Source: Geobacter metallireducens GS-15 (GTDB taxonomy: Bacteria > Desulfobacterota > Desulfuromonadia > Geobacterales > Geobacteraceae). Taken from it: 32,000 bases of DNA. Of this stretch, positions 2,028 through 28,384 are shown piece after piece. The notes below the pieces were generated by a model that was not told the DNA's origin, searched no databases, and was given only the letters and a program-made list of their open reading frames with translations. The stretch covers positions 2,370,001 to 2,402,000 of the forward strand of contig NC_007517.1 of assembly GCF_000012925.1 (NCBI RefSeq), given 5' to 3'. Both the position numbers and the translations under genes were made by a program. Positions within the stretch are counted from its first letter, which is position 1. The number at the start of each line of letters is the position of its first letter.

Positions 2028-3107
2028 ATGAACCGTGACAAGACAATACTCATCATCAATCCCGGCTCCACCTCGACCAAGATCGGCATCTTTTCGGCAG
2101 GCGAGATGAAAATCAACGTGTCGGTCAGACATGACGACGCGGAGCTGAGGAAGTTTGCCACCATCTGGGATCAGTACGATTACCGCAAGGACGCCCTCCT
2201 CGGGTTCCTGCGGGACCACGATCTCGCCATGGATGATATCGACGCCATCGCCTGCCGCGGCGGTAACGTCAGACCGCTCCCCGGTGGCATCTACCGGCTC
2301 TGTCCGCGAATGATCGCCGACATGAAGAGCGGCATCTACGGCGGCCACCCGATCAACGTGGGGGGGCTGGTGGCATATGACCTGGGGAACCAGTACGGCA
2401 TCCCGGTTCTGACCGCCGATCCTCCCATGACCGACGAACTCTGCGCCTCGGCCCGCTACTCCGGGATTCCCCAGCTCACGAGGACGAGCAGCTTCCACGC
2501 CCTGAACCAGAAGGCCACTGCCCGCAGAATCGCGGCGGAACTGGGGAAACGGTACGATGAGGTGAACCTGATCGTCGCTCACCTGGGGGGCGGCATCTCG
2601 GTGGGAGCACACCAGAAGGGGAAGATCGTCGACGTGAACAACGCCCTGGACGGGGACGGCCCCTTCTCGCCGGAACGGGCCGGGACACTGCCGGCCGGCG
2701 ACCTGGTCAAACTCTGCTTCAGCGGCGACTACACGAAGGCCGAGGTGCTGAAGCTCCTGACCGGCGGCGGAGGGCTGTACGCCTATCTGGGTACCACCAA
2801 CGTGATCGAGATTGAAAAGCGGATCACGGCGGGCGACGGGAAGGCGGCCGAGGTGTTCGAGGCGATGATCTACCAGGTGGCCAAGGAGATCGGCGCCTGC
2901 GCGGCCGTACTGGAGGGGACGGTGGACGCCATCGCCCTCACCGGGAGCCTGGTCTATTCGGAGCGACTCCTGGAGAGTCTGAAGAGGAAGATCGCTTTCA
3001 TCGCCCCGGTCCATTTGAACCCCGGCGAGAACGAGATGGAGGCCCTGGCCGATGCGGCAATGCGCTACTTCAGCCAGGAAGAAGAGCTGTCCGTGTACGC
3101 CGCCTGA
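2028..3107 (+). CDS. Butyrate-kinase-family (ASKHA) acyl kinase, copy 1
   Basis: 359 aa. ILIINPGSTSTKIG N-terminal phosphate loop, AIACRGG, LIVAHLGGGISVGAH, DGDGPFSPERAG and AIALTGSL are the conserved butyrate-kinase blocks. Close paralogue at 26057-27145. Confidence 0.85.
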   Translation: MNRDKTILIINPGSTSTKIGIFSAGEMKINVSVRHDDAELRKFATIWDQYDYRKDALLGFLRDHDLAMDDIDAIACRGGNVRPLPGGIYRLCPRMIADMKSGIYGGHPINVGGLVAYDLGNQYGIPVLTADPPMTDELCASARYSGIPQLTRTSSFHALNQKATARRIAAELGKRYDEVNLIVAHLGGGISVGAHQKGKIVDVNNALDGDGPFSPERAGTLPAGDLVKLCFSGDYTKAEVLKLLTGGGGLYAYLGTTNVIEIEKRITAGDGKAAEVFEAMIYQVAKEIGACAAVLEGTVDAIALTGSLVYSERLLESLKRKIAFIAPVHLNPGENEMEALADAAMRYFSQEEELSVYAA

Positions 3108-3161
3108 CCGGTTGCAACGGGCGGCAATCAATTACATCATTTACGAGAAAGAGGATTACTT

Positions 3162-4091
3162 ATGAAACAGTTCTCCCTCCGTCGGCTGTTGTTCCTCCCT
3201 TGCATCGCCCTTGCCGTATTTCTGTTCTCCGCCCCCCTGACGTGGGCCGGCGGAGGGCAGCACTATCCGAACGGTGTCGAAGACTTCGCCGTGGGGGCAC
3301 TCCCCCCTCCGGGTGTCTATCTCGTGAATTACCTGCTGCTCGTCCAGAAAAACAGCATCAAGGACAATTCCGGAAACAGCGTACCGGCGGATTTCAAGGC
3401 TGATGTGGTGGCCGAGGTCCCCCGACTCATCTACGTCAGTCCGTTCAAGCTATTGGGAGCCAACTGGGGCGCCCATGTCTTTCTTCCCTTCTACCACGCC
3501 GATGTGAAAAGCAGTTCCGACATCCCCCCGCTCAATTTCGATTCCCGCGACACGGGGATGGGGGATCTTATCTTCAGCCCCCTCATCCTTGGCTGGCACT
3601 TCACCCCCTCGCTCCATGCCGTCTTTGCACTGGACACCTGGGCACCCACCGGGGACTACGACAAGAACCGGCCGGCAACCCAGATCCTCTCCAGGAACCA
3701 CTGGACCTTCGAGCCGGTCGTGGCGGTCTCATACCTCAAGGAGGGTTTCGACGTCTCCGCCAAGCTCATGTACGACTTCAACACCAGAAACAGCGACACC
3801 GGCACCGACCCAGGCCAGGAGTTCCACATTGACTGGGCAGCGGGCTATGGACTCAGCAACGGGCTGAGCGGGGGCGTGGTGGGCTACAACTACTGGCAGA
3901 CCACCGACGACAAGGTCAACGGAGTCAGGGTCGAAGACGCAAACAGCAGGGTGGGAGGCATCGGCTTCGGCATCAAGTACTGGCCCAAACAGGGGCCGTT
4001 CAGCATGACCTTCAAACAGTACTGGGAGTATGGCGCCCGCAACATCGCCACCGGCCCCCAGACCCAGTTCAAGATTTCCTATGCCTTCTGA
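3162..4091 (+). CDS. Outer-membrane beta-barrel channel, MetA-pathway / phenol-degradation OMP family
   Basis: Signal peptide MKQFSLRRLLFLPCIALAVFLFSAPLTWA. Alternating amphipathic strands. C-terminal aromatic residue (KISYAF). GALPPPGVYLVNY and FEPVVAVSY blocks are shared with the paralogue at 25093-26016. RBS AAGAGGA upstream. Confidence 0.7.
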   Translation: MKQFSLRRLLFLPCIALAVFLFSAPLTWAGGGQHYPNGVEDFAVGALPPPGVYLVNYLLLVQKNSIKDNSGNSVPADFKADVVAEVPRLIYVSPFKLLGANWGAHVFLPFYHADVKSSSDIPPLNFDSRDTGMGDLIFSPLILGWHFTPSLHAVFALDTWAPTGDYDKNRPATQILSRNHWTFEPVVAVSYLKEGFDVSAKLMYDFNTRNSDTGTDPGQEFHIDWAAGYGLSNGLSGGVVGYNYWQTTDDKVNGVRVEDANSRVGGIGFGIKYWPKQGPFSMTFKQYWEYGARNIATGPQTQFKISYAF

Positions 4092-4763: not shown

Positions 4764-6185
4764 ATGGCCGACACAGAGCAGCATCTGGAAGAGATGCTTC
4801 GGCTGGCAAATTTCACCATAGAGCGGACCGGCACCCCCATTGTCTGGGTGGACTCCACGACCCGTTTTGCACGGGTAAACGACGCGGCATGCCGGTGTTT
4901 CGGTTACTCGCCCGATGAATTCATCCGCCTGACTGCCCAGGACATCGCCCCGGGGATCCCCACGGAATTGTGGCCGCAGCACTGGGCAGAGCTGAAGCGG
5001 ATGCAATTCCGCACCTTTTCGGATCATTTCAGAAAACGCTCCGGGGAAAAGTTCCCGGTAGAGGTCGAGGAAAACTTCATCCGGTTCGAAGGGAGGGAAT
5101 ACTCCTGCAGCTTCATCAAGGACATGACCCAGCATTTCCAGACCCAGGAAGCCCTGAGGCGGGCCTTGGACGAGGTGCAAACGCTCAAAAACCGTCTGGA
5201 AGCCGAAAACGTGTACCTGATGAACGAGATCAAACTCTCCAACAACTTCGATGAAATAGTCACCGGCAATCCCATCTTCATGAAGGCCCTGCAGCTTGTG
5301 GAACAGGTTGCCCCCACCGATGCGTCCGTACTTATCCTCGGAGAAACAGGCGTCGGCAAGGAACTCATCGCCCGCGCCATCCATAACCTGAGCAACCGCC
5401 GTGATCGCCCCCTCATCCGGCTCAATTGCGCCGCATTGCCGGCAACTCTCATGGAAAACGAACTTTTCGGCCACGAAAGGGGAGCCTTCACGGGAGCGAA
5501 CTGCCGCAAACCCGGCAGGTTCGACCTGGCTGACGGGGGGACCCTTTTTCTCGACGAGGTGGGTGATCTGCCCATGGAGTTGCAGAGCAAGCTTCTGCGT
5601 GTCTTGCAGGAAGGGGAATTCGAGCGGCTCGGCGGCGCTGAAACGATAAAGGTCGATGTACGCATCCTGGCCGCGACCCACGTGGATTTGAAAGCCCTGC
5701 TTGCCGAGGGGCGGTTTCGCAGCGACCTGTACTATCGCCTCAATGTCTTTCCGATCCAATGCCCCCCCCTCAGGGAACGCAGGGAAGACATCCCCCTGCT
5801 GGTCAGGCATTTTGTCAAAGCCTCCTGCGAAAAGAACGGAAAAAGCATCGAGCTTATTCCGCGCCATGTCATGGAGTCACTGGAGGGGTACCCCTGGCCC
5901 GGCAATATCCGGGAACTGCAGAACGTTATCGAACGGGCGGTGATCATCAGCCGGGGAAACAAGCTGGAGATCGACTCCCTCCCTAAAATGGTCATAGCCG
6001 CCGATGCAGCCCCCATCTCACCTCTGGAAGTGACCGAACGGGAACATATCATCCGTGCTCTCGAAACAACGGCATGGCGAGTCGGCGGGCCAAAGGGCGC
6101 CGCTGAAATCCTCGGACTGAAACGCACAACCCTCCAGGCGAGGATGCGCAAGCTCGGCATCAACCGGCAGGGCCTGCCAGCCTGA
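4764..6185 (+). CDS. Sigma-54-dependent transcriptional activator with N-terminal PAS sensor (PAS-AAA+-HTH)
   Basis: PAS-like N-terminus. Walker A GETGVGKE. ELFGHERGAFTGA (GAFTGA sigma-54 contact loop). [14 protein letters not shown]-terminal Fis-type HTH AAEILGLKRTTLQARMRKLGI. Confidence 0.9.
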   Translation: MADTEQHLEEMLRLANFTIERTGTPIVWVDSTTRFARVNDAACRCFGYSPDEFIRLTAQDIAPGIPTELWPQHWAELKRMQFRTFSDHFRKRSGEKFPVEVEENFIRFEGREYSCSFIKDMTQHFQTQEALRRALDEVQTLKNRLEAENVYLMNEIKLSNNFDEIVTGNPIFMKALQLVEQVAPTDASVLILGETGVGKELIARAIHNLSNRRDRPLIRLNCAALPATLMENELFGHERGAFTGANCRKPGRFDLADGGTLFLDEVGDLPMELQSKLLRVLQEGEFERLGGAETIKVDVRILAATHVDLKALLAEGRFRSDLYYRLNVFPIQCPPLRERREDIPLLVRHFVKASCEKNGKSIELIPRHVMESLEGYPWPGNIRELQNVIERAVIISRGNKLEIDSLPKMVIAADAAPISPLEVTEREHIIRALETTAWRVGGPKGAAEILGLKRTTLQARMRKLGINRQGLPA

Positions 6186-6421: not shown

Positions 6422-6437
6422 TGGAACACCTGTTGCT
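6422..6437 (+). promoter_or_regulatory. Sigma-54 (-24/-12) promoter
   Basis: TGGAAC-ACCTG-TTGCT against consensus TGGCAC-N5-TTGCW. The GG (6423-6424) and GC (6435-6436) are separated by exactly 10 nt. Lies 64 nt upstream of ATG 6501, after an AT-rich stretch and next to a sigma-54 activator gene. Confidence 0.6.
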
Positions 6438-6500
6438 AAACATTGTTTTGAATAAACGATTCCACAAATGCAAATCCCCATCACAGGAGAGGAGGCTCAC

Positions 6501-7868
6501 ATGTTAACCAGGACAGATGGCAAGGGCAGTAAGGTACTATTAATCGCGGCCATGGACACCAAGGGAACAGAAGCCCGTTACATCGAATCGTGGCTGGCGA
6601 AGGCGGGTTTCACCACGTTGATCATGGATATGGGTATCCGTGGAAAAAGGCCCGGTCCGGTCGCAGTCACCCGGGATGAAGTGCTGCGCGCTGCCGGGAA
6701 GACCTGGGATGACATACAAAATGTCACCAGCGAGGGGGACGCCGTGGACATCATGATCTCCGGCGGCGTCAAGTGTGCGCTTGCCCTGTACAAAGCTGAT
6801 CTAATTCAGGGGGTCATCAGTCTTGGGGGAACAATGGGCACCACCCTGGGCACGGGAGTGATGCGGGCTTTCCCCATTGGTTTCCCTAAGGTAATGATCT
6901 CTACCATCGCTGCCAAGGATACCGAGGCATTTATTGGGAACATGGATATTTTCATGCTGAATTCGGTGTCTGATCTGGCAGGACTGAACCGGATCACCCG
7001 TAAAGTGTTGCGAAACGGGGCGCTGGCAATTGCCGGCCTGGTCAGGGAACGGGAGTTCCATGACGAATTTTCACGCCCGCTGGCCGTCCTGACGACTCTG
7101 GGCACAACGGAGGCCACGGCGGCACGGATGAGAATCCACTTTGAGGCGTGGGGATACGAAAGTGTGACGTTCCATACCACGGGAACCGGCGGCCAGGCAA
7201 TGGAGCGGATGGTCAACTTCGAACCGGTCTCCGCAGTGGTGGACCTGTCCCTTCATGAACTGATAGACCACCATTTCGGAGGAGCGTTCGATCCCGGTCC
7301 GGAGCGTGGCAGAGCTGCCCTGCAAAAGGGGATACCGACGGTGATCGTTCCGGGCAATATCGATTTTCTGGTAACCGGTCCCATGGCCCAGGCCCAGATT
7401 TATTTTCCCGGCAGACGGGGGCACAAACATAACGCCAACATCACCTGCGTCCGGACAAGTCTGGAGGAAATCCAACGGATAGCAGAAATCATGGCCGGTT
7501 ACTGCAATGAAAGCACGGGGCCCGTTGCCGTCCTCGTGCCCATGAAGGGGTTCTCATGCCTGGATCATGAGGATGGCCCCCAACCGGACCCGGAGGGGCC
7601 TCGCGTTTTCGCCGAAACCTTCGCCAGGGCATTAACGCGCACCATCCATTTTGAAACGGTCCCGCTGCACATAAACGACGAAGCGTTTTCCGAAGTAATT
7701 GTCGGGGCACTGCAAAAAATCGGCGGACTGCGGAAAATCGAGGCTGATCGGCTACCATCCCGACAACCTGCGACATGGAGCCCTTACAGCTCAGTGCACA
7801 CCCTCGACCGCTTCTCCGGTAATCAGCACACCACTACGGAAACAACAGGAGATGCGCTTGCGGCATGA
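6501..7868 (+). CDS. UPF0261 / Tm-1-like ATP-binding family protein (full length, with about 50 aa C-terminal tail)
   Basis: KVLLIAAMDTKGTE, ISLGGTMGTTLGTGVMRAFPIGFPKVMIST and FMLNSVSDLAGLNRITRKVLRNGALAIAG match the conserved UPF0261 blocks as I remember them. ATG 6501 is preferred over 6468 because GGAGAGGAGG (6486-6495) precedes it. Confidence 0.75.
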   Translation: MLTRTDGKGSKVLLIAAMDTKGTEARYIESWLAKAGFTTLIMDMGIRGKRPGPVAVTRDEVLRAAGKTWDDIQNVTSEGDAVDIMISGGVKCALALYKADLIQGVISLGGTMGTTLGTGVMRAFPIGFPKVMISTIAAKDTEAFIGNMDIFMLNSVSDLAGLNRITRKVLRNGALAIAGLVREREFHDEFSRPLAVLTTLGTTEATAARMRIHFEAWGYESVTFHTTGTGGQAMERMVNFEPVSAVVDLSLHELIDHHFGGAFDPGPERGRAALQKGIPTVIVPGNIDFLVTGPMAQAQIYFPGRRGHKHNANITCVRTSLEEIQRIAEIMAGYCNESTGPVAVLVPMKGFSCLDHEDGPQPDPEGPRVFAETFARALTRTIHFETVPLHINDEAFSEVIVGALQKIGGLRKIEADRLPSRQPATWSPYSSVHTLDRFSGNQHTTTETTGDALAA

Positions 7869-7884
7869 AGAACAATTCAAACAT

Positions 7885-7927
7885 CCCCCCGGGAACCGTC
7901 ATCATTGATGAAGAGGTGCCCGGGGGG
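7885..7927. other. GC-rich stem-loop (9-bp perfect stem CCCCCCGGG / CCCGGGGGG, 25-nt loop holding an inner TCATCA/TGATGA repeat) between convergent genes
   Basis: Arms at 7885-7893 and 7919-7927, read directly. Starts 17 nt after the stop at 7868. No adjacent U-tract, so it is not a classical intrinsic terminator. Confidence 0.3.
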
Positions 7928-8159
7928 ATGTCACATTTTCCACCACTGGTTCCCGGAAGGGGCGGAGCTCTCGCGGAGAAGCGATCCCCGCAAAAAACCA
8001 CCTACGGCGTTTGCGGAGGGAAAGCCCCGGGAATAGCTGTTCACGTGCCACGAAGACCGGCTGGTGACGCTGGATCGCTTCGGAGCGAGAGATCCGCCCC
8101 TTCCGACACCATGCGTGACCAAGTTGAAGTAATGAGCACCAGCCGTTGAATCCGCCGGT

Positions 8160-8879
8160 TCAGAACGATGTGACGATAGCAGGGAGTACGGTGTGGGAGG
8201 GAATCAGCCGGTCAGGAGCATGCATCGACAGGGAGGCGCTGTCGCCGGCCCCGGTGAGCACGCTCACCACTCGCACGCCGGCGGCGCGGCTGGCGAAAAT
8301 ATCTATCGGGGCATCACCCACGTAGAGGGCGTCGGCGGGTGCGACGCTGAGGTGATCCAGGCATTTAAGGATCCCCTCGGGGTCGGGCTTGCTCTTGGAG
8401 ACATCCTTGCCGAGCACGACCGCGTCAAAGCGCTCCAGGACACCGTTTGGCCGAAGCAGTTCCAGAACTTCGGGGCGGGCGCCGCTCACGATGCCGAGCA
8501 GTATCCCGAGACCTTTCAGCGCATCGAGCGTTTCCAGCACCCCGTCGAACAGCTTGCCGTGCTCCCGCAGTATCCGCGGCCACTCCCGGGCGGCATTGGC
8601 GGAAATAGCCTTCAAGATGGCAGCGCCATCACTCCGATCCTCCGGCACAATGCCTTTCCAGAAGCTGCCCCCAGAGGAGAGCGCCAGCCGCACCTGTTCC
8701 TCTGTCACCTCAAAGCCGAACGGCTCGGCAGCGACCCGCGCCACCTCGATGTAGGCGCCGACCGAATCGACCAGCGTACCGTCAAGATCGAACAGTACCG
8801 CCCTGACGGCGAGCGAGCAACACAACTCCGCCCCGGGCCCTGCCTCGGTCCCAAACGTAGAATGCCCTTCAAATGCCAT
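8160..8879 (-). CDS. HAD-superfamily hydrolase (phosphoglycolate-phosphatase-like, subfamily IA)
   Basis: VLFDLDGTLVDS (motif I, DxDGT), IVSGA (motif II) and YVGDAPIDIFASRAAG (motif IV). ATG 8879 is preceded on the minus strand by GGGAG with a 5-nt spacer. Confidence 0.8.
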   Translation of the reverse strand: MAFEGHSTFGTEAGPGAELCCSLAVRAVLFDLDGTLVDSVGAYIEVARVAAEPFGFEVTEEQVRLALSSGGSFWKGIVPEDRSDGAAILKAISANAAREWPRILREHGKLFDGVLETLDALKGLGILLGIVSGARPEVLELLRPNGVLERFDAVVLGKDVSKSKPDPEGILKCLDHLSVAPADALYVGDAPIDIFASRAAGVRVVSVLTGAGDSASLSMHAPDRLIPSHTVLPAIVTSF

Positions 8880-8901
8880 GATGACTCCCGGAACTACCGG
8901 T

Positions 8902-9378
8902 TCAAGTCTTATCTGCCATGCTCAGATCAACCTCGTCGCGATTGCCCAAGCCGAGTGAATTGTCGATAAAATAGAGACGGTGCGGAACCACCTTGTACCA
9001 GCGAACCTTGGCCATGGCCTTGACAATGGCCGCCGGAGCCTGGGCCAGCAACCCGACCACCGGGAACTTCCGCCCGTACAGCTTGCGGGCTTTTTCTTCC
9101 TCGGCGCCGGAAATCTCGACGGCTATCCCTTCGATCTGCACCCCCTTGATTTCCAGCCAGTCGGCATAATCCTCCTGGATGGTCACGGCAACGCATGCCT
9201 CCTGGGCCAGATCGAGACAATGCCGGGTCGTTGGCGATGACAGAAAATAGAGGGTATAACCATCGTTTGCGTAGAACACCGCCGCCGCCCACGGGCCACC
9301 GCTGCCGCTGGTTGCCACGGTGGCAACATTGTGGTCCAGCAGGTACCTCTGCACCCGCATGCCCAGCGCGTCTTTCAC
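8902..9378 (-). CDS. Pyridoxamine-5'-phosphate-oxidase-like (FMN-binding split-barrel) protein
   Basis: 158 aa. LLDHNVATVATSGSGGPWAAAVFYANDGYTLYFLSSPTTRH...VTIQED is the typical PNPOx-like fold signature. A GTG start at 9378 overlaps the upstream stop (GTGA). ATG 9360 is the alternative start. Confidence 0.65.
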   Translation of the reverse strand: MKDALGMRVQRYLLDHNVATVATSGSGGPWAAAVFYANDGYTLYFLSSPTTRHCLDLAQEACVAVTIQEDYADWLEIKGVQIEGIAVEISGAEEEKARKLYGRKFPVVGLLAQAPAAIVKAMAKVRWYKVVPHRLYFIDNSLGLGNRDEVDLSMADKT

Positions 9379-11096
9379 TTCTCGCCACCTGCGTCGGACC
9401 CGTCATCGTGCAGACGGCCCAGGCGATAGGCCAGTTGCGGCCGGGTCAGTCCGAGCAGCCGGGCAGCAGCGGAGAGATTGCCATTGGCCTTTTTCACCGC
9501 TGCTTCTATCAGTGCGGCTTCGGCCTGATCCAGGGTCATGGTGCCGTTCAGGACCTCATCCCGGAGGTCGTTCCCGCTTGCGGGGCGGTCGATACCGAGA
9601 CTGCCGCTGCTGTCCAGCCCGAATTCCAGTCCCAGCCCATCGGCACTCCCCGAGAACATCTGTTCCAGCTCTATGCGCGAGCCGCTGGGAGCCAGTATGA
9701 CCCCCCGCTCCACCATGTTCATCAACTCGCGGATGTTGCCCGGCCAGGGGTAGGCCAGAATGGCCCGCATGGCCTTGTCGGTAAAACCGGTGAGCTTTTT
9801 GCCGTGAATCGCGGAATACTTTTCGACAAAACCGTGGGCAAGGAGGGGGATATCCTCTTCGCGCTCCCTGAGAGGCGGGATGTTGATCTGGAAAGCATTG
9901 AGCCGGTAATAGAGATCCGATCGAAATTTCCCCTCTTTGACCAGCTGTTTCAAGTCGACATTGGTCGCCGCAACCAGCCTCACATCCACCTTGCGGACCT
10001 TCTGTCCCCCAAGGCGCTCGATTTCCCCCTCCTGGAGGACCCGCAGCAGTTTCACCTGGGCCGAGAGGGGGAGATCACCAATCTCATCGAGAAACAGAGT
10101 CCCACCGTGGGCGCGTTCGAAGCGTCCCGGCCGGGTGTTGAGCGCGCCGGTGAAGGCCCCCTTTTCCACCCCGAACAGCTCCGATTCCACCAGGTCGTGG
10201 GGGATGGCGGCGCAGTTGATGGCGATGAACGACTCGTTGCGGCGGGCGCCCATTTCGTGCAGTGAACGGGCGAAGACCTCCTTGCCGACGCCGGTCTCGC
10301 CCAACAGAAGCACCGTAATCTGGCTGTTTGCCGCCTGCTTGAGCAGTCCGTAGGCAACGCGAAAGGCCGGAGAATTCCCCACGATGTCCGCAGGGAGCTT
10401 TTCCTTCTCGTTTATGGCCGAACGCAACTGCACCACCTGGGTCTGCAGGTCGATGAGCTGATCGGCAATGGACTCCTGGTTGAAGATGCGCAGGTAGTCG
10501 GCCGAGTCCTCCCATTCCTCGATGGGCTTGCCGACGATGCGACAGCTGTTGTCCCCCTTGCCGACACACTCGATTTCCTTGTACAGAATCGGCCGCCCCA
10601 TCAAGGCCGTGGTATAGCCGCAGGCATAGCCGATCTGGCTCCAGCAGACCGGTTCGGAATGGGTGCCGTACTGGTGCCGGTGCCACTGCCCTTCCCAGGA
10701 GTTTTCCCACAGGAACTCGCCGTAGTACCTGCCGGCGGCGCGGTCGGCCTCCAGCTTGAGGGTGGTCACCTTGACGATGCCTTCAAGGGTATGGAGCTGG
10801 GTGCCGGTCATGAAAGCTTCGTAGTCGGTTGCCCCCTGATCCCGCCTGCTGAAGACTTCGGCATCGTGCATGCCCGATGCAAAGCCCATGCGAATGAGGA
10901 GCCCCCGTGCGCGTTCCATGCCGAGGGTGTCGATCAACTCCTTGCGCATCCCCCCCTGTGCATTGGCATGAACCAAGAGCATACGGTGCTCGTGGAGCCA
11001 TATCTGACCGGTTTCGGCACAGAAATGCACCAGTGAGCGCAGGTCGCTGTTGGTTGCGTCGCAGGCGATATTTCGGTTACCGCGGGGTTTGGTCAT
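9375..11096 (-). CDS. XylR/DmpR-type sigma-54-dependent activator (XylR_N + V4R aromatic-effector sensor, AAA+, HTH), paralogue 1
   Basis: [15 protein letters not shown]...[20 protein letters not shown] (XylR N-terminal domain). [11 protein letters not shown]...CRIVGKP (V4R). [43 protein letters not shown]. Confidence 0.9.
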   Translation of the reverse strand: MTKPRGNRNIACDATNSDLRSLVHFCAETGQIWLHEHRMLLVHANAQGGMRKELIDTLGMERARGLLIRMGFASGMHDAEVFSRRDQGATDYEAFMTGTQLHTLEGIVKVTTLKLEADRAAGRYYGEFLWENSWEGQWHRHQYGTHSEPVCWSQIGYACGYTTALMGRPILYKEIECVGKGDNSCRIVGKPIEEWEDSADYLRIFNQESIADQLIDLQTQVVQLRSAINEKEKLPADIVGNSPAFRVAYGLLKQAANSQITVLLLGETGVGKEVFARSLHEMGARRNESFIAINCAAIPHDLVESELFGVEKGAFTGALNTRPGRFERAHGGTLFLDEIGDLPLSAQVKLLRVLQEGEIERLGGQKVRKVDVRLVAATNVDLKQLVKEGKFRSDLYYRLNAFQINIPPLREREEDIPLLAHGFVEKYSAIHGKKLTGFTDKAMRAILAYPWPGNIRELMNMVERGVILAPSGSRIELEQMFSGSADGLGLEFGLDSSGSLGIDRPASGNDLRDEVLNGTMTLDQAEAALIEAAVKKANGNLSAAARLLGLTRPQLAYRLGRLHDDGSDAGGEK

Positions 11097-11098
11097 CG

Positions 11099-12709
11099 TT
11101 ACTGTGCCTCATCCGATGGTGCAATTTTGACAATAATCATCGCCACATCGTCAGCAAGAGGCCCGTCGCCGGTAAATTCGGTCAATTTCCGGAAAATCCC
11201 GGCCATGATCTCTTTCGGATGGTTGTCCCGGTATGCGGCAACGGCCTCGCAGAGCCGCCCGGTGCCGAAAGGCTCTCCCGCGGCACTTTCCGCTTCCGTT
11301 ACGCCGTCGGTATAGAGGATGAAGATGTCCCCCGCCGCCACCAGGATGGTTTTTTCCTCGAAACCGACCTCTTTTTTTACCCCCATGATCATTCCGTCAG
11401 CATCGAGTTCAATGAAATCAGCCTGCTCCGAACGGTAGAGAACGGGATGGTTGTGGCCGGCGTTGGCGTAGGACACGGTGTGGTTGGGGATGTCCAGCCG
11501 GATATAGAACATGCTGATCTGAAGCTCTGCCCGCGAGAGATCATCGTGGAGCAGGTCATTTACCACTTCGAGGAGCTTTCCGGGGGGGCGGCTGCCGGTG
11601 ACCTTGGCGTTAAGCACACTGCGGGCCATGGTCATCAGGAGGGACGAGCCGACGCTATGGCCGGTGACATCGGCGATGACCATATCGATGGCGCCCTCTT
11701 CCAGGGTGAAGAAATCGTAGTAATCGCCACCCACATGGGCCGCCGGGTGACAACAGCACGCCATGAGCACCCCCGGCAACGCCGAGGGACATACCGGCAG
11801 GAACGACTGCTGGATCTCCTTGGCTATCTCCAGTTCCCGGGTGATCCGGGCGTTGTCCAGGAGGGCGGCCGCGGCCTTTTTCTGTTCGGTGATGTCGGAG
11901 AAGCTCCCCCGGATGCCGAGGTAGGTACCGTTGTCGTCGAACACCGGCTGGCAGACATGGCGAATCCAGCGGATATCACCATCCCGGTGGACGATGCGGA
12001 ATTCAACCTGGCCCATAACCTTTTCTTCTCTCACCTCATGCCGGTGGACGTCCACAAGCTGCCGATCATCGGGGTGAACGATATTCCAGATCAGGCCGGG
12101 ATCGGCAGTGAACGCGTCGGCCTCATAGCCGCAGACCCTTTCGCAGGAAGGAGACGTGTAAATGACCCTTCCTTCCGGGCTCAGCCAGAATTCCCAGTTG
12201 AAGGTGTTGTCGGCGACGATCCGGTATTTGATTGCCGCCTCCCGCAACGCCTCTTCCGCACGCCGTCGTTCCGTGATATCGCGCCCTTCCGGAACGACCA
12301 GGACCACATTCCCCCTCTCATCCTTCACGGGCTTAAGCGAAAAATCTATGTACGCAACTCTTCCGTCAAGGGTCGCCGCGTGGGTGGTTTCAAAGCGGAT
12401 GAACTCCCCCCGGGCAGCAGCCTCGATCCCCTCGCGCACCCGCTTCTGTTCTTCGCGGGAGTGAGCCCACCACGGAGTGTCCCAGAAGGGCCTGCCGATA
12501 ACTTCCGATTCCTTTCCCTTGATGGAACGGAAGGCGGCTTTATTGATCTTGATGAGGGTGCCGTCCGGCTTCAGGAGCCCCATCAACTGAAACGCTTCGT
12601 CAAAGACGACACTCAACAGGGCGTAGCTTTGGAGAAACGCCTCGTCTTTCAGGCGGGATCTGTTGCTTCGAAATCTATTGAGAAAATTTTCGGTAACTTT
12701 GGTTTGCAT
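11099..12709 (-). CDS. PAS-PAS-PP2C (SpoIIE/RsbU-type) serine phosphatase
   Basis: Two PAS-like repeats ending in DITERRRAEEAL and DITEQKKAAAAL linkers. Then EIAKEIQQSFLP, GGDYYDF, VIADVTGHSVGSS, LYTDGVTEA and ADDVAMIIV, the PP2C metal-binding Asp motifs. RBS GAGGAG 6 nt upstream. Stop lies 2 nt before the next start. Confidence 0.85.
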   Translation of the reverse strand: MQTKVTENFLNRFRSNRSRLKDEAFLQSYALLSVVFDEAFQLMGLLKPDGTLIKINKAAFRSIKGKESEVIGRPFWDTPWWAHSREEQKRVREGIEAAARGEFIRFETTHAATLDGRVAYIDFSLKPVKDERGNVVLVVPEGRDITERRRAEEALREAAIKYRIVADNTFNWEFWLSPEGRVIYTSPSCERVCGYEADAFTADPGLIWNIVHPDDRQLVDVHRHEVREEKVMGQVEFRIVHRDGDIRWIRHVCQPVFDDNGTYLGIRGSFSDITEQKKAAAALLDNARITRELEIAKEIQQSFLPVCPSALPGVLMACCCHPAAHVGGDYYDFFTLEEGAIDMVIADVTGHSVGSSLLMTMARSVLNAKVTGSRPPGKLLEVVNDLLHDDLSRAELQISMFYIRLDIPNHTVSYANAGHNHPVLYRSEQADFIELDADGMIMGVKKEVGFEEKTILVAAGDIFILYTDGVTEAESAAGEPFGTGRLCEAVAAYRDNHPKEIMAGIFRKLTEFTGDGPLADDVAMIIVKIAPSDEAQ

Positions 12710-12727
12710 GGCGTGCTCCTCGCCACC

Positions 12728-14467
12728 TCACTCCGGAACGGCTGCCAGGGCAACGCCGGCAGGCGCCACGTTATTCTCCTGCAGACGTCTGAGTCGGTAG
12801 GCCAGTTGCGGCCGGGTCACGCCAAGCGTCCGTGCCGCCGCCGAAAGGTTGCCGTTGGCCGTTTTTACGGCCGATTCGATCAGGGTGGCCTCAACCTGGT
12901 CCAGAGTCATGTTCCCTTTAACCACAAATTCGTAGATATCATTCACGGGTTCCGGGGTATCGGCACCGAGACCGCCGTTACTATCGAGGCCGAATTCCAT
13001 GGCCATATCAATGCTGCTGGAGGAGAACATCTGCTCTAGCTCGATCCGGGTGCCATTGGGGGTAAGAATGACCCCCCGCTCCACCATGTTCAGCAATTCG
13101 CGGATGTTCCCCGGCCAGGGGTAGGCCAAGATGGCCCGCATGGCCTTATCGGTAAAGCCGTTAAGTTTCTTGCCGTGGATGGCGGAATATTTCTCAATGA
13201 ACCTTTGGGCCAAGAGAGGGATGTCCTCTTTGCGCTCCCGGAGAGGAGGGATGTTGATCTGGAAGGCATTGAGCCGATAGTAGAGATCCGACCGGAACTT
13301 ACCCTCCTTGACCAGTTGTTTCAGGTCGATGTTGGTGGCCGCGACCAGCCTCACATCTACCTTGCGGACTTTGTGGTCCCCAAGCCGCTCGATTTCACCT
13401 TCCTGAAGAACCCGCAGCAGCTTGGCCTGGGCCGACAGCGGCAGATCACCGATCTCGTCGAGAAACAGCGTGCCTCCATTGGCCCGCTCGAAGCGTCCCG
13501 GCCGGGCACTGAGCGCACCGGTATAGGCCCCCTTCTCCACCCCGAACAGCTCCGATTCCACCAGGTCGTGGGGGATGGCGGCGCAGTTGATGGCGATGAA
13601 CGATTCATTGCGGCGAGTGCTGCGGGAGTGCAGCGCCCGGGCGAAGACCTCCTTGCCGGAGCCGGTCTCGCCGAGCAGCAGGACCGTTATCTGGCTTTTG
13701 GCCGCCTGCTGCAGCATGTCGTAGGCCGCACGGAATGCCCTGGAATTGCCGACAATGTCCGCAGGGAGTTTCTCTTTTTCACCGATGACCGAACGGAGCT
13801 GGACCACCTGGGTCTGCAGATCGATCAGCTGCTCGGCAATGGACTCCTTGACGAAAAAGCGCGAATATTCCGATGCGTCTTCCCACTCCTCAAGGGGCTT
13901 TCCAACGATGCGGCAATGACCTTCCCCCATGCCCGCGCACTCCAGTTCCTTGTAGAGAATGGGGCGTCCCATGAAGGATGACGCATAGGCGCAGGCATAC
14001 CCTATCTGGCTCCAGCAGACCGGCTCGGAGTAGGTGCCGTAGTACTGTTTGTGCCACTCGCTCTCCCAGGAGTTCTCCCAGATGAACTCGGCATAGAAGC
14101 TGCCGGCGCTGCGGTCGTACTCCAGCGAGACCGTGGACACCTTGGCGATGCCTTCCAGCATGTGCAACTGCGGGCCGGCAATGAACGCCTCCACATCGCC
14201 ATCGCTTCCGGCCCTGGTGCGGGCCAGCTCGAAGTCGCGCATCCCTGCCGCGTACCCCATGCGGGTGAGAAGCCCCCGGGCACGGTCCATGCCGAGGGTG
14301 TCGATCAACTCCTTGCGTAGCGACGCCTGGACCTCGGCATGGATCAGGAGCATGCGATGCTCGTGCAGCCATATCTGGCCGGTTTCGACACAGAACCTCA
14401 AGCGCGAGCGCAGATCCGTGTCGTTCGTGTCGCGGACCGGCCTGGTTTTACCGGAATATTTGTACAT
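12728..14467 (-). CDS. XylR/DmpR-type sigma-54-dependent activator, paralogue 2
   Basis: Same architecture as 9375-11096 and colinear over the full length ([66 protein letters not shown]). Confidence 0.9.
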
Positions 14468-14965
14468 GAAAAATACCTACCGCCGAAAATTATATAAAAC
14501 CAAGTTATACCAGACATGTATATTTGTCCAGTACATATGGTCGGCAGTCACGATGTAACCGCCCGCCAGTCCTGCAATAATAACAAGTTATGGTGCCAGG
14601 AAAACATTGCAGCGCGCTAATTCATTGTTTACTTATTCAACAGTTCTATAAATATTTACTAATTCAATAATGTTTCCCCCCATCAAACTCTCATCTGTTG
14701 CAATCCCGTCGCTCAAAAATTGCCTCAAGCCACTATTCGCAACAGTTTATGCCGCAATCCCGCCTTTACCTTGCATTCGTTTTTCACCATTTAATCAACA
14801 ATCCCCACCCCCCGTCAACCACAATTCACCAAATGATAAAATGAGGGGACTTGCCATTTCGGTCAAAACAAGCGACTAACCAACCCTCCCCAAAAACCGT
14901 GAAACCTTGCCAGTACTGCCTTTTCTAAACCCTTCCATAGCCTAACCAATTTTTACAACAGCGTT

Positions 14966-14981
14966 TGGCATATCCAGTGCT
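14966..14981 (+). promoter_or_regulatory. Sigma-54 (-24/-12) promoter for the downstream catabolic/respiratory gene string
   Basis: TGGCAT-ATCCA-GTGCT. The GG (14967-14968) and GC (14979-14980) are separated by 10 nt. Only the T to G change at the first -12 position departs from TGGCAY-N5-TTGCW. Lies in a 650-bp AT-rich gap divergent from a sigma-54 activator gene. Confidence 0.55.
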
Positions 14982-15115
14982 TTACGCAAGGCAACCAACG
15001 CGTAAGCAGACAACGGGAGCTACGCATAACCAAAACATACATAACAATGTTTTGCGCATTAAGGCATGCATAACCGCTCAGGAAACAACAGGGTCTGAAA
15101 GGACGGGAGTTGATC

Positions 15116-16261
15116 ATGACCGCAATGAATGACGGGCAGCATGGGGCGACCATGGATGAACTGGTGAACAACGGGCTGGATAACGTTAATAGCGGCACAA
15201 GGGCCGCTGTCCCGGGCATCGCCCAACTGGGGTTCTACCTGGTGATATTCATGGCCATAAGCTGGGCGATGATGTTCTTCATCCCCACGCCGTTCCTCTT
15301 TACCGTGCTCCTCCCCGCTTCTTTTTACGTCCTGTACAGCCTGGTGGTTTTCTCCCCCCTGGTTTCCGGCGGGTGGCCCTTCGCTCCCCCCCTCGGCAGC
15401 TGGCGCCCCGGGCAGAGTTGGCTGAAGCCGGGAGTGGGGACGACGGCTCTTCTGGTGGCCGTCGCCATCGCCGGTCCCCTCTTCACAAGCACGATCTATC
15501 CCCGAATCCCTCTTTTCCCGGTCGGGTTCTGGTGGGGGATCATCCTCTTCACGGTCACCCTCTGGTATTCCATGGTCTGGAACGGCTGGCCCCTCAACGG
15601 GAAATGTTCTCCGGCCGTGCGGGGCATCGGCGGCGGCCTGATCATCCTTCTGATCACCGCGCTTCTGTGGCAACTGGTCAACCTGGGCGGTACCCCCTTT
15701 GCCGACGCCCCCTATGATCCCCGCGGGCCGTTCCAGGCTGAATGGTTCTTCGGTCTCCTGGTCTGGATCATCGTCTGGATCCAGGCCTTCGCCAACGTCC
15801 TGACTTTCCAGCAATGGCCCTTTTACAAACTGGGCGAGCCCTGGGGGCAAATCGCCAACACCGTGGTCTCCATCGTTCTCGGCTGGCTCTGCTGGACCAC
15901 AAGCCTCAAATTCATGGCCCCGACCTTCTCCTTCGCGGCGGTCGCCGGCTCCATCATCGGGATGCAGAACTTCCACGGCGCCATCTTCGGCTACTATCCG
16001 TTCCTCAAGTTCAAACAGCCTAAACGGGGCATCTGCAACTTCCTCACGGAAATTGCCCTGGCCTTCGTCTGGATCGCCCTGCTCCGGGTACTGATGCAGC
16101 CCATTGTCGCCAAGGTGCAAGCAGCGGGGCTCCCGTTCGACATCAATGTAGTCTCGGTTCTCTACACCCTGCATTTCATCGCCCTGCTCACGCTCATCCA
16201 CAACTTCTATTTCCTGCGGGCACCCCTGCCCCCATCCGGACCTCCCCCTGCTCCCGAATAA
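15116..16261 (+). CDS. Polytopic integral membrane protein of unknown function (about ten hydrophobic segments, Trp-rich loops)
   Basis: 381 aa. No motif I recognise and no CxxCH. GGGAG (15105-15109) lies 6 nt before ATG 15116. Would be the first gene of the pcm string if the published lettering follows gene order. Confidence 0.65.
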   Translation: MTAMNDGQHGATMDELVNNGLDNVNSGTRAAVPGIAQLGFYLVIFMAISWAMMFFIPTPFLFTVLLPASFYVLYSLVVFSPLVSGGWPFAPPLGSWRPGQSWLKPGVGTTALLVAVAIAGPLFTSTIYPRIPLFPVGFWWGIILFTVTLWYSMVWNGWPLNGKCSPAVRGIGGGLIILLITALLWQLVNLGGTPFADAPYDPRGPFQAEWFFGLLVWIIVWIQAFANVLTFQQWPFYKLGEPWGQIANTVVSIVLGWLCWTTSLKFMAPTFSFAAVAGSIIGMQNFHGAIFGYYPFLKFKQPKRGICNFLTEIALAFVWIALLRVLMQPIVAKVQAAGLPFDINVVSVLYTLHFIALLTLIHNFYFLRAPLPPSGPPPAPE

Positions 16262-25062: not shown

Positions 25063-25092
25063 CGTTCAATGAGCATTTGGAGGAAACAATCC

Positions 25093-26016: not shown

Positions 26017-26056
26017 GGATTTCACAGGGATTGACACTCTTCCGGAGGGTACAACG

Positions 26057-27970: not shown

Positions 27971-27985
27971 GGGATGGAGGGTGCC

Positions 27986-28384
27986 ATGAAAGAAGTCCTC
28001 GATATGCTTCCCGCCCCCTGTTACGGCAGCCTGGCAACGGTGGCCGGCGGCAAACCCCGGGTCAGGCCCTTTGCCTTCATGTATGAAGAAAACGGTCGAT
28101 TCTATTTCTGCACGGCCAGCAACAAAGAGGTTTACCGGCAACTGACCGAGACGCCGTTCATCGAATTCACCAGGACCGATGAACAGATGCGCTGGCTGAG
28201 AATCGGCGGCGAGATCACATTCGACGAGGATATCAAGAGCAGGGAGAAATGCTTCGCCAACTATCCCATGCTCAAAGATATCTATCAGACGCCTGACAAC
28301 CCGCTCTTCAAGGTGTTTTACCTGGAGCACGGCGCGGCATCCGTTAACAGTCTGACCGAACCGCCCAAGAACTTTGAATTCTGA
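27986..28384 (+). CDS. Pyridoxamine-5'-phosphate-oxidase-like (FMN-binding split-barrel) small protein
   Basis: About 132 aa. GSLATVAGGKPRVRPFAFMYEENGRFYFCTASNKEVYRQL is typical of this fold family. GGAGG (27976-27980) lies 5 nt before ATG 27986. Confidence 0.6.
   Translation: MKEVLDMLPAPCYGSLATVAGGKPRVRPFAFMYEENGRFYFCTASNKEVYRQLTETPFIEFTRTDEQMRWLRIGGEITFDEDIKSREKCFANYPMLKDIYQTPDNPLFKVFYLEHGAASVNSLTEPPKNFEF

What the first reader, a model, noticed from the sequence alone, without database searches (positions are those of the whole stretch)
8160..14467. Five-gene operon: XylR-type activator - PAS-PAS-PP2C phosphatase - XylR-type activator - PNPOx-like - HAD
All five genes are on the minus strand. 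The junctions are 18 nt, 2 nt, a 4-nt overlap (GTGA) and 22 nt, so co-transcription and partly coupled translation are very likely.

XylR/DmpR-type activators are normally controlled directly by binding of an aromatic effector to the N-terminal domain. They have no receiver domain, and I know of no established phospho-control. A SpoIIE/RsbU-type serine phosphatase with two PAS sensors sits exactly between two such activators, and no STAS/anti-sigma partner is in sight. This suggests an undescribed layer in which a redox- or metabolite-sensing phosphatase tunes aromatic-responsive enhancer-binding proteins or a third partner. The trailing FMN-binding-fold and HAD proteins may belong to the same circuit.
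Basis: partly seen in the sequence, partly recalled or inferred. Interest (0 to 1): 0.7.

Follow-up and report, generated by a model that had tools for sequence, protein, structure and literature searches.

The report
Phosphatase gene inside p-cresol regulator operon
The regulator operon of the Geobacter metallireducens p-cresol genes holds two ordinary aromatic-sensing activators with an intact signalling protein phosphatase between them; related bacteria keep this neighbourhood, but nothing found here shows what the phosphatase acts on.

Summary
Five minus-strand genes (Gmet_2116 to Gmet_2112 of G. metallireducens GS-15) have the stated domains and junctions of 18, 2, -4 and 22 nt.

Both activators are canonical DmpR/XylR-type sigma-54 activators. 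They are paralogues with diverged sensor domains (63% identity), similar ATPase domains and the same DNA-recognition helix. They face an invariant sigma-54 promoter with XylR-type upstream sites in front of the p-cresol (pcm) genes.

The middle protein is a PAS-PAS-PP2C phosphatase of the RsbU/SpoIIE type. All of its metal-binding aspartates are conserved.

A related PAS-PP2C gene lies next to or near XylR-type genes in eight more loci of Geobacter/Geotalea relatives, in five gene orders. PP2C relatives without this PAS domain never do (0 of 47 informative loci).

The trailing PNPOx-like and HAD genes are ancestral companions of the activator. They also occur where no phosphatase is nearby, so they are not phosphatase partners.

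No STAS protein or kinase is encoded in the window or in the related flanks that were annotated.

By family precedent, an unlinked phosphoprotein partner is more likely. I rate this a new variant of a known kind, of moderate interest.

The parts
12728..14467 (-). XylR1 (Gmet_2116). DmpR/XylR-type sigma-54 activator, 579 aa.
   Evidence: Pfam XylR_N, V4R, Sigma54_activat, HTH_8. It matches DmpR/CapR 6IY8 at E 5e-160 over residues 18-481 with no extra domain. Walker A, GAYTGA, Walker B, the His/Trp phenol anchors and the Cys/Glu/Cys/Cys zinc site are present.
11099..12709 (-). PAS-PAS-PP2C phosphatase (Gmet_2115), 536 aa.
   Evidence: Pfam PAS_4, PAS_3, SpoIIE. The motifs GGDYYD, DVTGHS, TDGVTE and DDV are invariant in 6 orthologues and 40 relatives. 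The AlphaFold model has pLDDT 85.8. Its phosphatase domain matches SiaA (target-normalised TM-score 0.80), RssB, the RsbU domain of Rv1364c, and SpoIIE.
12245..12625 (-). PAS1 of the phosphatase (residues about 29-155).
   Evidence: The best solved relative is TodS PAS1, the toluene sensor (5HWV, E 8e-19). 7 of 12 TodS pocket residues are identical and 2 are conservative. PAS1 is the only sensor domain conserved in all orthologues.
11864..12196 (-). PAS2 of the phosphatase (residues about 172-282).
   Evidence: Pfam PAS_3/PAS_9. It is replaced by a different PAS domain in orthologues P0042 and P0043.
11120..11842 (-). PP2C (SpoIIE-type) catalytic domain (residues about 290-530).
9375..11096 (-). 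XylR2 (Gmet_2114). Paralogous DmpR/XylR-type activator, 573 aa.
   Evidence: 74% identical to XylR1 overall. By region: sensor domain 63%, ATPase region 87-90%. The recognition helix RPQLAYRL is the same.
8902..9378 (-). PNPOx/YhbP-like split-barrel protein (Gmet_2113), 158 aa. Its start overlaps the XylR2 stop.
   Evidence: Pfam PNPOx_N. The model (pLDDT 84.6) matches flavin-, heme- and F420-binding split barrels. Homologues follow XylR genes directly in L171, L172 and L005.
8160..8879 (-). HAD-IA hydrolase (Gmet_2112), 239 aa.
   Evidence: Pfam HAD_2. It is 61% identical to the HAD part of the L003 fusion protein. Similar HAD plus CTP-dependent riboflavin kinase fusions follow the PNPOx gene in L171, L172 and L173.
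14966..14980 (+). Sigma-54 promoter (TGGCATATCCAGTGC) of the divergent pcm operon.
   Evidence: The GG-N10-GC spacing is correct. The core TTTGGCA...TGCT is invariant in five lineages.
14785..14841 (+). Two XylR-type upstream activator half-sites in inverted orientation (CACCATTTAATCAACAA and TTCACCAAATGATAAAA).
   Evidence: AAATGATAAA is invariant and CAAATGATAAA nearly so in five lineages, about 125-180 nt upstream of the promoter. The resemblance to the XylR site TTGANCAAATC comes from my own knowledge.
15116..16261 (+). Gmet_2117, a membrane protein and first gene of the pcm operon. It is the likely target of the activators.
   Evidence: The same gene lies divergently upstream of the regulator genes in L001, L002, L005, L006 and L171.

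Best explanation
This is the regulatory unit of the p-cresol (pcm) gene cluster of G. metallireducens. It was built from an older three-gene unit, XylR-type activator + PNPOx-like protein + HAD hydrolase.

In the G. metallireducens lineage the activator was duplicated. The two copies now have different effector-sensing domains but similar ATPase domains and the same DNA-recognition helix. A PAS-PAS-PP2C phosphatase gene came to lie between them.

Step 1 (shown by sequence, function inferred): XylR1 and XylR2 each bind a phenolic effector, bind the conserved upstream sites, and activate the sigma-54 promoter at 14966.

Step 2 (inferred from family precedent only): the phosphatase is an active RsbU/SpoIIE-type enzyme. 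A signal read by its conserved PAS1 domain switches it on, and it dephosphorylates a phosphoserine protein that is not encoded in this locus. By precedent this would be a STAS-type partner-switching protein whose kinase is also elsewhere. The phosphatase therefore adds a second, conditional input to aromatic catabolism or to the stress response to phenolics. It does not replace effector control of the activators.

Step 3 (inferred): the PNPOx-like and HAD proteins serve flavin cofactor metabolism for the neighbouring UbiX/UbiD-type phenol enzymes. They are not part of the signalling.
For: Activators:
- Full DmpR-type motif set; colinear with DmpR.
- Orthology groups by sensor domain (X1 79-98%, X2 76-97%, X1 versus X2 62-66%). 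ATPase regions within one genome are 87-95% identical, at least as similar as orthologues in L005.
- Invariant sigma-54 promoter and upstream sites.

Phosphatase:
- Catalytic motifs invariant.
- PP2C fold confirmed.
- Bacterial phosphatases of this family are known to act on STAS-domain proteins (PMC11418112).
- The Geobacteraceae locus L171 carries a receiver domain on its homologue, as in RsbY-type inputs (the RsbY comparison is from my own knowledge).

Linkage:
- A related PAS-PP2C gene sits next to or near XylR genes in L001, L002, L003, L005, L006, L168/L169 and L171, in five gene orders. Butler 2007 lists the same gene set for Geobacter sp. FRC-32.

Three-gene core without phosphatase nearby:
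- L172 has XylR-PNPOx-HAD/riboflavin kinase with no PP2C within 8 kb.
- In Azoarcus sp. EbN1 the best hits of the activators and of the PNPOx-like protein have consecutive accession numbers.
- L170 and L173 have the PNPOx-like gene without XylR or PP2C in the flanks; in L173 it is paired with HAD/riboflavin kinase.

Expression: Gmet_2112-2114 respond together on benzoate, while Gmet_2115-2116 are not listed.
Against: - No STAS protein or kinase was seen in the 32-kb window or in the flanks of L001-L003 and L171. The proposed partner is therefore purely hypothetical, and the rest of the genome could not be searched.
- Retained proximity to XylR genes through several rearrangements would also fit a direct functional tie to the activators.
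- The ligand of PAS1 is unknown.
- The microarray evidence is threshold-based and comes from one condition.
Confidence: 0.4

Rival explanations
1. Direct control of the activators. The PAS-PP2C protein binds XylR1 and/or XylR2 and either removes an inhibitory or activating phosphoserine from them, or holds them inactive the way NifL holds NifA. A second signal would then gate effector-dependent activation of the pcm promoter.
For: - The PP2C gene keeps its place beside XylR genes in five gene orders, in every 2-PAS orthologue locus examined.
- Junctions in the window are very short (18 and 2 nt) and there is a 4-nt overlap in L169, as in translationally coupled regulator pairs.
- No alternative substrate is encoded locally.
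- The tandem-PAS architecture resembles NifL in the solved NifL-NifA complex 9QQ6, and XylR1 matches NifA of that same entry.
- Accessory proteins that antagonise a DmpR-type regulator are known, for example MphX-MphR (PMC3063778).
- V4R sensor and PAS domains occur fused in PcrS and in L047.
Against: - No kinase is present in the locus.
- No phosphorylation of any XylR/DmpR-type protein turned up in the literature search.
- The activators have no added domain or insertion relative to DmpR.
- The tight junctions are not conserved: gaps of 292 and 288 nt precede the PP2C gene in L003 and L005.
- XylR-PNPOx-HAD units exist without a PP2C nearby (L172), and PheR is treated as a one-component activator.
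- Known substrates of this phosphatase family are STAS proteins.
Confidence: 0.22
2. Post-translational control of catabolism. The phosphatase acts on an enzyme or transporter of the p-cresol/phenol pathway, or hydrolyses an aryl phosphate such as phenylphosphate, and so tunes flux rather than transcription.
For: - The gene lies at the junction of the p-cresol and phenol gene clusters in Geobacter and in L171 and L007.
- From my memory of the abstract of Peters et al. 2007, which I could not read here, pcm transcript levels and enzyme activities were regulated differently and post-transcriptional control was suggested.
- PP2C enzymes hydrolyse the aryl phosphate pNPP in vitro (my own knowledge).
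Against: - No member of the SpoIIE/RsbU family is known to have a metabolic-enzyme or small-molecule substrate.
- There is no local kinase.
- Nothing in the sequence points to a particular enzyme.
Confidence: 0.1
3. No functional link. The phosphatase is one of the many orphan PAS-PP2C signalling proteins of Geobacteraceae. It sits beside the activators only because the whole aromatic island is inherited as a block.
For: - All loci with this linkage come from one family-level group and from the same island.
- Close multi-PAS relatives stand alone, for example next to a transposase in Geotalea sp. SG265.
- Geobacteraceae encode many PAS- or receiver-PP2C proteins.
Against: - Gene order around the PP2C has been reshuffled at least four times, yet XylR proximity is kept.
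- The protein is under clear purifying selection, from 90% down to 54% identity with the catalytic residues and PAS1 intact.
Confidence: 0.15

Closest known systems
DmpR / XylR / PheR one-component sigma-54 activators
   Same: XylR1 and XylR2 have the same domain order, the His/Trp phenol anchors, the zinc site, the GAFTGA loop and a Fis-type helix-turn-helix. They face a divergent sigma-54 promoter with upstream sites.
   Different: Here there are two paralogues with different sensor domains but the same recognition helix, and a phosphatase gene lies between them. PheR of Aromatoleum is described as working as a single protein.
RsbU / RsbP / SpoIIE partner-switching phosphatases (RsbP is PAS-PP2C and is co-encoded with the helper enzyme RsbQ)
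   Same: SpoIIE-type PP2C domain with an N-terminal sensor domain, all catalytic aspartates, and a long helical linker into the phosphatase domain.
   Different: No STAS substrate and no anti-sigma kinase gene lies nearby. The neighbours are sigma-54 activators instead. The RsbQP comparison is from my own knowledge.
NifL-NifA anti-activator pair
   Same: A tandem-PAS sensor protein is encoded immediately beside a sigma-54 activator with very short junctions. Fold search ranks NifL of the complex 9QQ6 among the matches.
   Different: NifL ends in a kinase-like domain, not a PP2C domain. No binding has been shown here, and the short junctions are not conserved in all relatives.
TodS PAS1 aromatic-hydrocarbon sensor domain
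   Same: It is the best solved relative of PAS1 (E 8e-19). The aromatic cage F79/W84/W85/F128 and the signalling residues E146 and R148 are kept.
   Different: F46 becomes Leu and I114 becomes His. The same residues are typical of a subfamily spread across many phyla (His in 73 of 85), so binding of aromatic compounds is not established.
SiaA-SiaB-SiaC of Pseudomonas aeruginosa
   Same: SiaA is the closest solved PP2C domain by fold (target-normalised TM-score 0.80). That system shows this phosphatase family can control outputs other than sigma factors (the system's function is from my own knowledge).
   Different: The SiaA match is far below the NCBIfam cut-off (56 versus 700 bits). No SiaB- or SiaC-like genes are present.
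PcrSR p-cresol sensor of Aromatoleum aromaticum
   Same: It regulates anaerobic p-cresol methylhydroxylase genes and combines a XylR_N/V4R sensor with a PAS domain.
   Different: PcrS is a histidine kinase with a response regulator. Geobacter instead uses one-component activators plus a separate PAS-phosphatase.

Membership tests
XylR/DmpR-type sigma-54 enhancer-binding proteins | N-terminal XylR_N + V4R effector domain, with the His/Trp anchors and the Cys/Glu/Cys/Cys zinc site | tested here: met
   Pfam. H102, W130, C151, E174, C177 and C185 were located by motif search and column alignment; all these positions are matched in the HMMER alignment to DmpR 6IY8.
XylR/DmpR-type sigma-54 enhancer-binding proteins | AAA+ domain with Walker A, Walker B and the GAFTGA loop; C-terminal Fis-type helix-turn-helix; no receiver domain | tested here: met
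   GETGxGKE, GA(Y/F)TGA, LFLDEI and HTH_8 are present, and there is no Response_reg hit.
XylR/DmpR-type sigma-54 enhancer-binding proteins | Effector-dependent activation of a sigma-54 promoter | not testable with these tools
   Only the conserved -24/-12 promoter and the upstream sites were found.
RsbU/SpoIIE-type PP2C phosphatases (PF07228) | PP2C fold with the metal-binding aspartates | tested here: met
   SpoIIE domain at E 4e-45. D329, D332, D347, D468, D520 and D521 are invariant in 40 relatives. Target-normalised TM-score 0.80 to SiaA, 0.74-0.79 to the isolated RssB phosphatase domain, and 0.54-0.55 to the longer two-domain Rv1364c chain.
RsbU/SpoIIE-type PP2C phosphatases (PF07228) | Phosphoserine phosphatase activity | not testable with these tools
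   Requires an enzyme assay.
Partner-switching module (phosphatase + STAS antagonist + anti-sigma kinase) | STAS-domain substrate and RsbW-type kinase encoded with the phosphatase | tested here: not met
   No such domain in the scanned ORFs of the 32-kb window or in the annotated flanks of L001, L002, L003 and L171. Genes elsewhere in the genome could not be searched.
NifL-NifA-type anti-activator pair | Sensor protein co-encoded with the sigma-54 activator it binds | tested here: inconclusive
   Adjacency is met in nine loci. Tight junctions are met in the window and in L168/L169 but not in L003 or L005. Binding cannot be tested here.
NifL-NifA-type anti-activator pair | C-terminal GHKL nucleotide-binding domain on the sensor protein | tested here: not met
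   The C-terminal domain is PP2C.
TodS-type aromatic-binding PAS domains | Hydrophobic pocket residues F46, G48, V59, A63, F79, W84, W85, I114, V126, F128, A145 and G147 | tested here: inconclusive
   7 identical, 2 conservative and 3 changed (F46L, I114H, A145P). The same pattern is common to 85 PAS domains from many phyla. No ligand-binding data exist.
PNPOx-like split-barrel flavoproteins (YhbP-like) | Split beta-barrel fold | tested here: met
   PNPOx_N. The model has pLDDT 84.6. Matches include Rv2991, a heme-binding protein of M. smegmatis, HugZ, and FMN/F420 binders. The cofactor is undetermined. The YhbP model scores 66 bits against a 176-bit cut-off.
HAD-IA hydrolases | HAD core domain | tested here: met
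   HAD_2 at E 1e-33. No equivalog cut-off was reached. The substrate is unknown.

The most novel reading that the evidence does not exclude
The PAS-PP2C protein is a dedicated partner of XylR/DmpR-type activators. It would bind them, and either dephosphorylate them or hold them in a NifL-like complex, so that p-cresol genes fire only when both the phenolic effector and a second PAS-sensed signal are present. That would be the first phosphatase-based control layer known for this activator family.
Probability: 0.2. Interest if true: 0.75.

Novelty: new variant of a known kind. Interest (0 to 1): 0.45.

Why it matters
XylR/DmpR-type activators are the textbook one-component aromatic sensors and are widely used as biosensors. 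A conserved phosphatase partner would mean that some of them integrate a second signal. It would also give a handle on how strict anaerobes prioritise toxic phenolic substrates. Even under the more conservative reading, the locus links a partner-switching-type phosphatase to an aromatic catabolic island in an organism where deletions can be made. The question can therefore be tested directly.

Tried and rejected
1. His110 of PAS1 (replacing TodS I114) as a specific anchor for the phenolic hydroxyl. Rejected: His occupies this position in 73 of 85 PAS1-like domains from unrelated phyla.

2. PNPOx-like and HAD proteins as members of the phosphatase circuit. Rejected: they follow XylR genes with no PP2C nearby (L172) or occur without XylR or PP2C in the flanks (L170, L173).

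3. A genome-wide survey using the full-length phosphatase alignment.

4. A metagenome survey using the catalytic domain only. It returned 80 loci with PP2C domains at most 60% identical. None had PAS1, XylR_N or PNPOx, and 47 of them had at least 6 kb of flank.

5. Recent gene conversion between the two activator genes. Support is only modest: DNA identity in the ATPase region is 76-88% and the longest identical run is 68 nt.

6. PAS2 as a LOV/FMN sensor linked to the PNPOx-like protein. I saw no LOV cysteine motif by eye, and PAS2 is replaced in two orthologues.

7. Sigma-70 promoter scan. Nothing was found in 7800-15150, so the operon's own promoter remains unidentified.

8. Literature. Peters et al. 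2007 on the pcm cluster is not held. No paper mentions Gmet_2111-2116 in its main text. The search for serine phosphorylation of XylR/DmpR-type activators returned nothing relevant; a planned search for PP2C control of sigma-54 activators failed on a syntax error and was not repeated.

Full report
**Where the window comes from.** The gene coordinates and annotations match Additional file 1 of Butler et al. 2007 exactly once 2,370,000 is added to window coordinates. The window is therefore part of the aromatic-catabolism island of Geobacter metallireducens GS-15, and the five genes are Gmet_2116, 2115, 2114, 2113 and 2112. The PNPOx-like protein is found with 100% identity on a contig of 3,997,420 bp.
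- On the right, on the plus strand, lie the p-cresol methylhydroxylase (pcm) genes: a membrane protein, an FAD/FeS oxidoreductase, bc1-like subunits, a cytochrome c and two FAD-linked oxidase subunits. After them come an SDR, an aldehyde dehydrogenase, a MarR regulator and the start of 4-hydroxybenzoyl-CoA reductase.
- On the left lie genes of the phenol cluster: UPF0261, UbiX, a butyrate-kinase-like protein, a porin, an HD protein and a PAS-containing sigma-54 activator.

The five minus-strand ORFs, their lengths, the junctions (18, 2, -4, 22 nt) and the GTGA overlap are all as stated. Every start codon has a plausible ribosome-binding site. No STAS protein, RsbW-like kinase or Hanks kinase was found among the scanned ORFs of the 32 kb.

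**The two activators are canonical.**
- XylR1 aligns with DmpR/CapR (6IY8) over residues 18-481 at E 5e-160, with only a one-residue gap.
- Both copies keep the phenol-anchoring His and Trp, the Cys/Glu/Cys/Cys zinc site, Walker A and B, the GAFTGA loop (GAYTGA in XylR1) and the same recognition helix RPQLAYRL.
- They are 74% identical overall, but unevenly so: sensor domains 63%, ATPase regions 87-90%.
- Sensor domains sort into two orthology groups across genomes (X1 79-98%, X2 76-97%). The ATPase regions of the two copies within one genome (87-95%) are at least as similar as orthologues in the more distant locus L005 (82-88%). This suggests some concerted evolution, but at the DNA level the signal is modest.
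- The simplest reading is two sensors for different phenolic effectors acting on the same DNA sites.

**Their target is visible.** Aligning the intergenic region from five lineages shows an invariant sigma-54 promoter core (TTTGGCA...TGCT, window 14966-14980). It also shows an invariant AAATGATAAA element (CAAATGATAAA in four of the five), with a second, inverted copy, 125-180 nt upstream. This is the usual architecture for XylR/DmpR-regulated promoters.

**The phosphatase looks active.**
- The four motif groups that carry the metal-binding aspartates (GGDYYD, DVTGHS, TDGVTE, DDV) are invariant in six orthologues spanning 90% to 54% identity, and in a 40-sequence alignment of wider relatives.
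- An AlphaFold model (pLDDT 85.8) shows PAS, PAS, a long helix and a PP2C domain. The PP2C domain superposes on SiaA (target-normalised TM-score 0.80), on the isolated RssB phosphatase domain (0.74-0.79), and on the RsbU domain of Rv1364c and SpoIIE (0.51-0.55 against those longer chains).
- PAS1 is the only sensor domain conserved among orthologues. PAS2 is a different PAS domain in P0042 and P0043.

**What PAS1 might sense.** Its best solved relative, by a wide margin, is the toluene-binding PAS1 of TodS (E 8e-19; the next PAS structure covering PAS1 scores 5e-4). I mapped the twelve published pocket residues (PMC4861429). Seven are identical, two are conservative, and three differ (F46 to Leu, I114 to His, A145 to Pro). 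This is tempting for a phenol sensor. However, the same residues, including the His, are typical of a PAS subfamily found in methanogens, Planctomycetes, cyanobacteria and many others (73 of 85 carry His). The ligand therefore remains unknown. 'Aromatic-sensing' is only a lead, as is 'redox-sensing'.

**Is the arrangement conserved?** Yes, but only within a narrow group.

| Locus | Gene order |
|---|---|
| Window, G. grbiciae (L001), G. hydrogenophilus (L002; no HAD gene follows PNPOx) | XylR1 - PP2C - XylR2 - PNPOx - HAD |
| L005 | XylR1 - PNPOx - PP2C - XylR2 |
| L006 | PP2C - XylR2 |
| L168 / L169 | XylR1 - PP2C - XylR2, with a three-PAS phosphatase |
| L003 | XylR - PP2C - PNPOx |
| L171 (Geobacteraceae MAG) | XylR - PNPOx - HAD/riboflavin kinase, then a receiver-PAS-PP2C 0.5 kb further on |

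- Butler 2007 lists orthologues of the same gene set in Geobacter sp. FRC-32, with accession numbers running in an order like that of L171.
- Eighty metagenomic loci have PP2C domains at most 60% identical. None contains PAS1, a XylR sensor domain or the PNPOx-like gene, and 47 of them have at least 6 kb of flank.
- A close three-PAS relative in Geotalea sp. SG265 stands alone beside a transposase.
- The link is thus real and has survived several rearrangements. It is confined to Geobacteraceae-like aromatic islands, so shared descent cannot be fully separated from selection.

**The trailing genes belong to the activator, not the phosphatase.**
- The PNPOx-like protein has more than 120 close homologue clusters, far more than the handful of full-length two-PAS phosphatase orthologues.
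- In L172 it directly follows a XylR gene with a 4-nt overlap, and is followed by a HAD/CTP-dependent riboflavin kinase fusion. These sit beside a phenol cluster (porin, UbiX, CBS, NUDIX, UPF0261, UbiD, phenylphosphate-synthase-like gene), with no PP2C within 8 kb.
- In L173 the PNPOx-HAD/kinase pair occurs with neither XylR nor PP2C in the flanks. In L170 the PNPOx-like gene stands alone in a CoA-transferase/beta-oxidation cluster.
- In Azoarcus sp. EbN1 the best hits of the Geobacter activators and of the PNPOx-like protein have consecutive accession numbers.
- The HAD protein of the window is 61% identical to the HAD part of the L003 fusion, and the window gene lacks the kinase domain that its homologues carry.
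- The PNPOx-like model matches flavin-, heme- and F420-binding split barrels without discriminating among them.
- I infer a role in flavin (possibly prenyl-FMN) supply. This is an inference from context only.
- In a benzoate-versus-acetate microarray, Gmet_2112, 2113 and 2114 rose 2.3-2.7 fold together, while Gmet_2115 and 2116 did not pass the 2-fold cut-off. That fits an older XylR2-PNPOx-HAD unit with its own promoter. The 'five-gene operon' is better seen as XylR1 + PP2C placed in front of that unit.

**How it most likely works.**
- With good confidence: the two activators sense phenolic effectors and drive the pcm promoter.
- For the phosphatase, only family precedent is available. Bacterial SpoIIE/RsbU-type phosphatases dephosphorylate STAS-domain proteins in partner-switching pathways (PMC11418112), and many genomes encode the partners elsewhere. 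I therefore rank 'unlinked phosphoprotein partner, second input to aromatic or stress physiology' first (0.4).
- Direct control of the activators, by dephosphorylation or NifL-like binding, comes second (0.22).
  - For it: retained adjacency, the short junctions in the window and in L168/L169, and the absence of a local substrate.
  - Against it: no kinase; the activators carry no extra domain; the junctions are long in L003 and L005 (292 and 288 nt); XylR-PNPOx-HAD units exist with no PP2C nearby; and PheR of Aromatoleum is described as a one-component activator confirmed by deletion and complementation.
- Post-translational control of pathway enzymes (0.1) and mere co-inheritance (0.15) remain possible.

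**Novelty and interest.** All parts belong to known families. I found no paper naming these genes in its main text; the only mention located is the supplementary table of Butler 2007, where the phosphatase appears as 'putative PAS/PAC sensor protein'. A PP2C phosphatase held beside XylR/DmpR-type activators is not a described arrangement as far as I could find, so I call it a new variant of a known kind. It would interest specialists in sigma-54 regulation and anaerobic aromatic degradation. It can be tested directly in a genetically tractable organism. The present evidence does not show any new mechanism.

Noticed in passing
window 6422-6436 (+): Sigma-54-type promoter TGGAACACCTGTTGC, one mismatch from consensus. 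It lies 32 nt before the ORF start at 6468 (65 nt before the start annotated in the genome record, window 6501) of the UPF0261 gene Gmet_2110, and just downstream of the PAS-containing sigma-54 activator Gmet_2109 (4764-6185). This is probably a second activator-promoter pair in the window.
   Followed up: partly
window 27974-28384 (+): A second, shorter PNPOx-like gene (136 aa) lies between the SDR (27203-27970) and the aldehyde dehydrogenase (28403-29845) of the p-cresol pathway. PNPOx-like genes thus occur twice in this island.
   Followed up: no
window 2028-4091 and 25069-27145 (+): Two pairs of a Phenol_MetA_deg porin gene and a butyrate-kinase-family gene (Gmet_2106/2107 and Gmet_2127/2128). 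What a butyrate-kinase-like enzyme does in phenol/p-cresol clusters is unexplained.
   Followed up: no
window 8160-8879 (-); L003 11220-12263; L171 5176-6219; L172 8606-9625; L173 8584-9633: The homologues of the HAD protein are fused to an N-terminal CTP-dependent riboflavin kinase domain that is missing in G. metallireducens and G. grbiciae. In L003 and L172 the fusions sit near NUDIX, UbiX, UbiD, CBS and UPF0261 genes, which suggests a flavin or prenyl-FMN supply module for the UbiD-type carboxylase.
   Followed up: partly
L047 9131-10876 (+): In a Desulfobacterales genome bin, one 581-aa protein joins a XylR_N/V4R-like sensor (with the zinc-site cysteines), a PAS domain 46% identical to PAS1 of the phosphatase, and a LuxR-type helix-turn-helix. 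It lies next to a molybdenum hydroxylase gene. This is a natural fusion of the two sensor types that are separate proteins in Geobacter.
   Followed up: partly
window 12245-12625 (-) and loci L007-L086: The PAS subfamily marked by FWxTPWW, TH and PEGR is very widespread. It occurs in methanogens, Planctomycetes, cyanobacteria, Omnitrophota and others, and it shares its aromatic cage with TodS PAS1. Its ligand appears to be unknown.
   Followed up: partly
window 9375-11096 versus 12728-14467 (-): The ATPase regions of the two activator paralogues are at least as similar within each genome (87-95%) as to their orthologues in L005 (82-88%), while the sensor domains keep clean orthology. This is possible concerted evolution of part of the gene.
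   Followed up: partly
L168 2653-3850: The XylR2 orthologue in this metagenomic contig changes reading frame between about 3621 and 3719. It is either a pseudogene or an assembly error. The sister contig L169 is intact as far as it reaches.
   Followed up: no
window 7865-8149 (+): Gmet_2111, a 94-aa ORF overlapping the stop of the UPF0261 gene by 4 nt. It has no family match. The published table lists no homologue, and no gene is called at this position in G. grbiciae. It ends 10 nt from the convergent HAD gene stop, leaving no room for a terminator between the two transcription units.
   Followed up: partly
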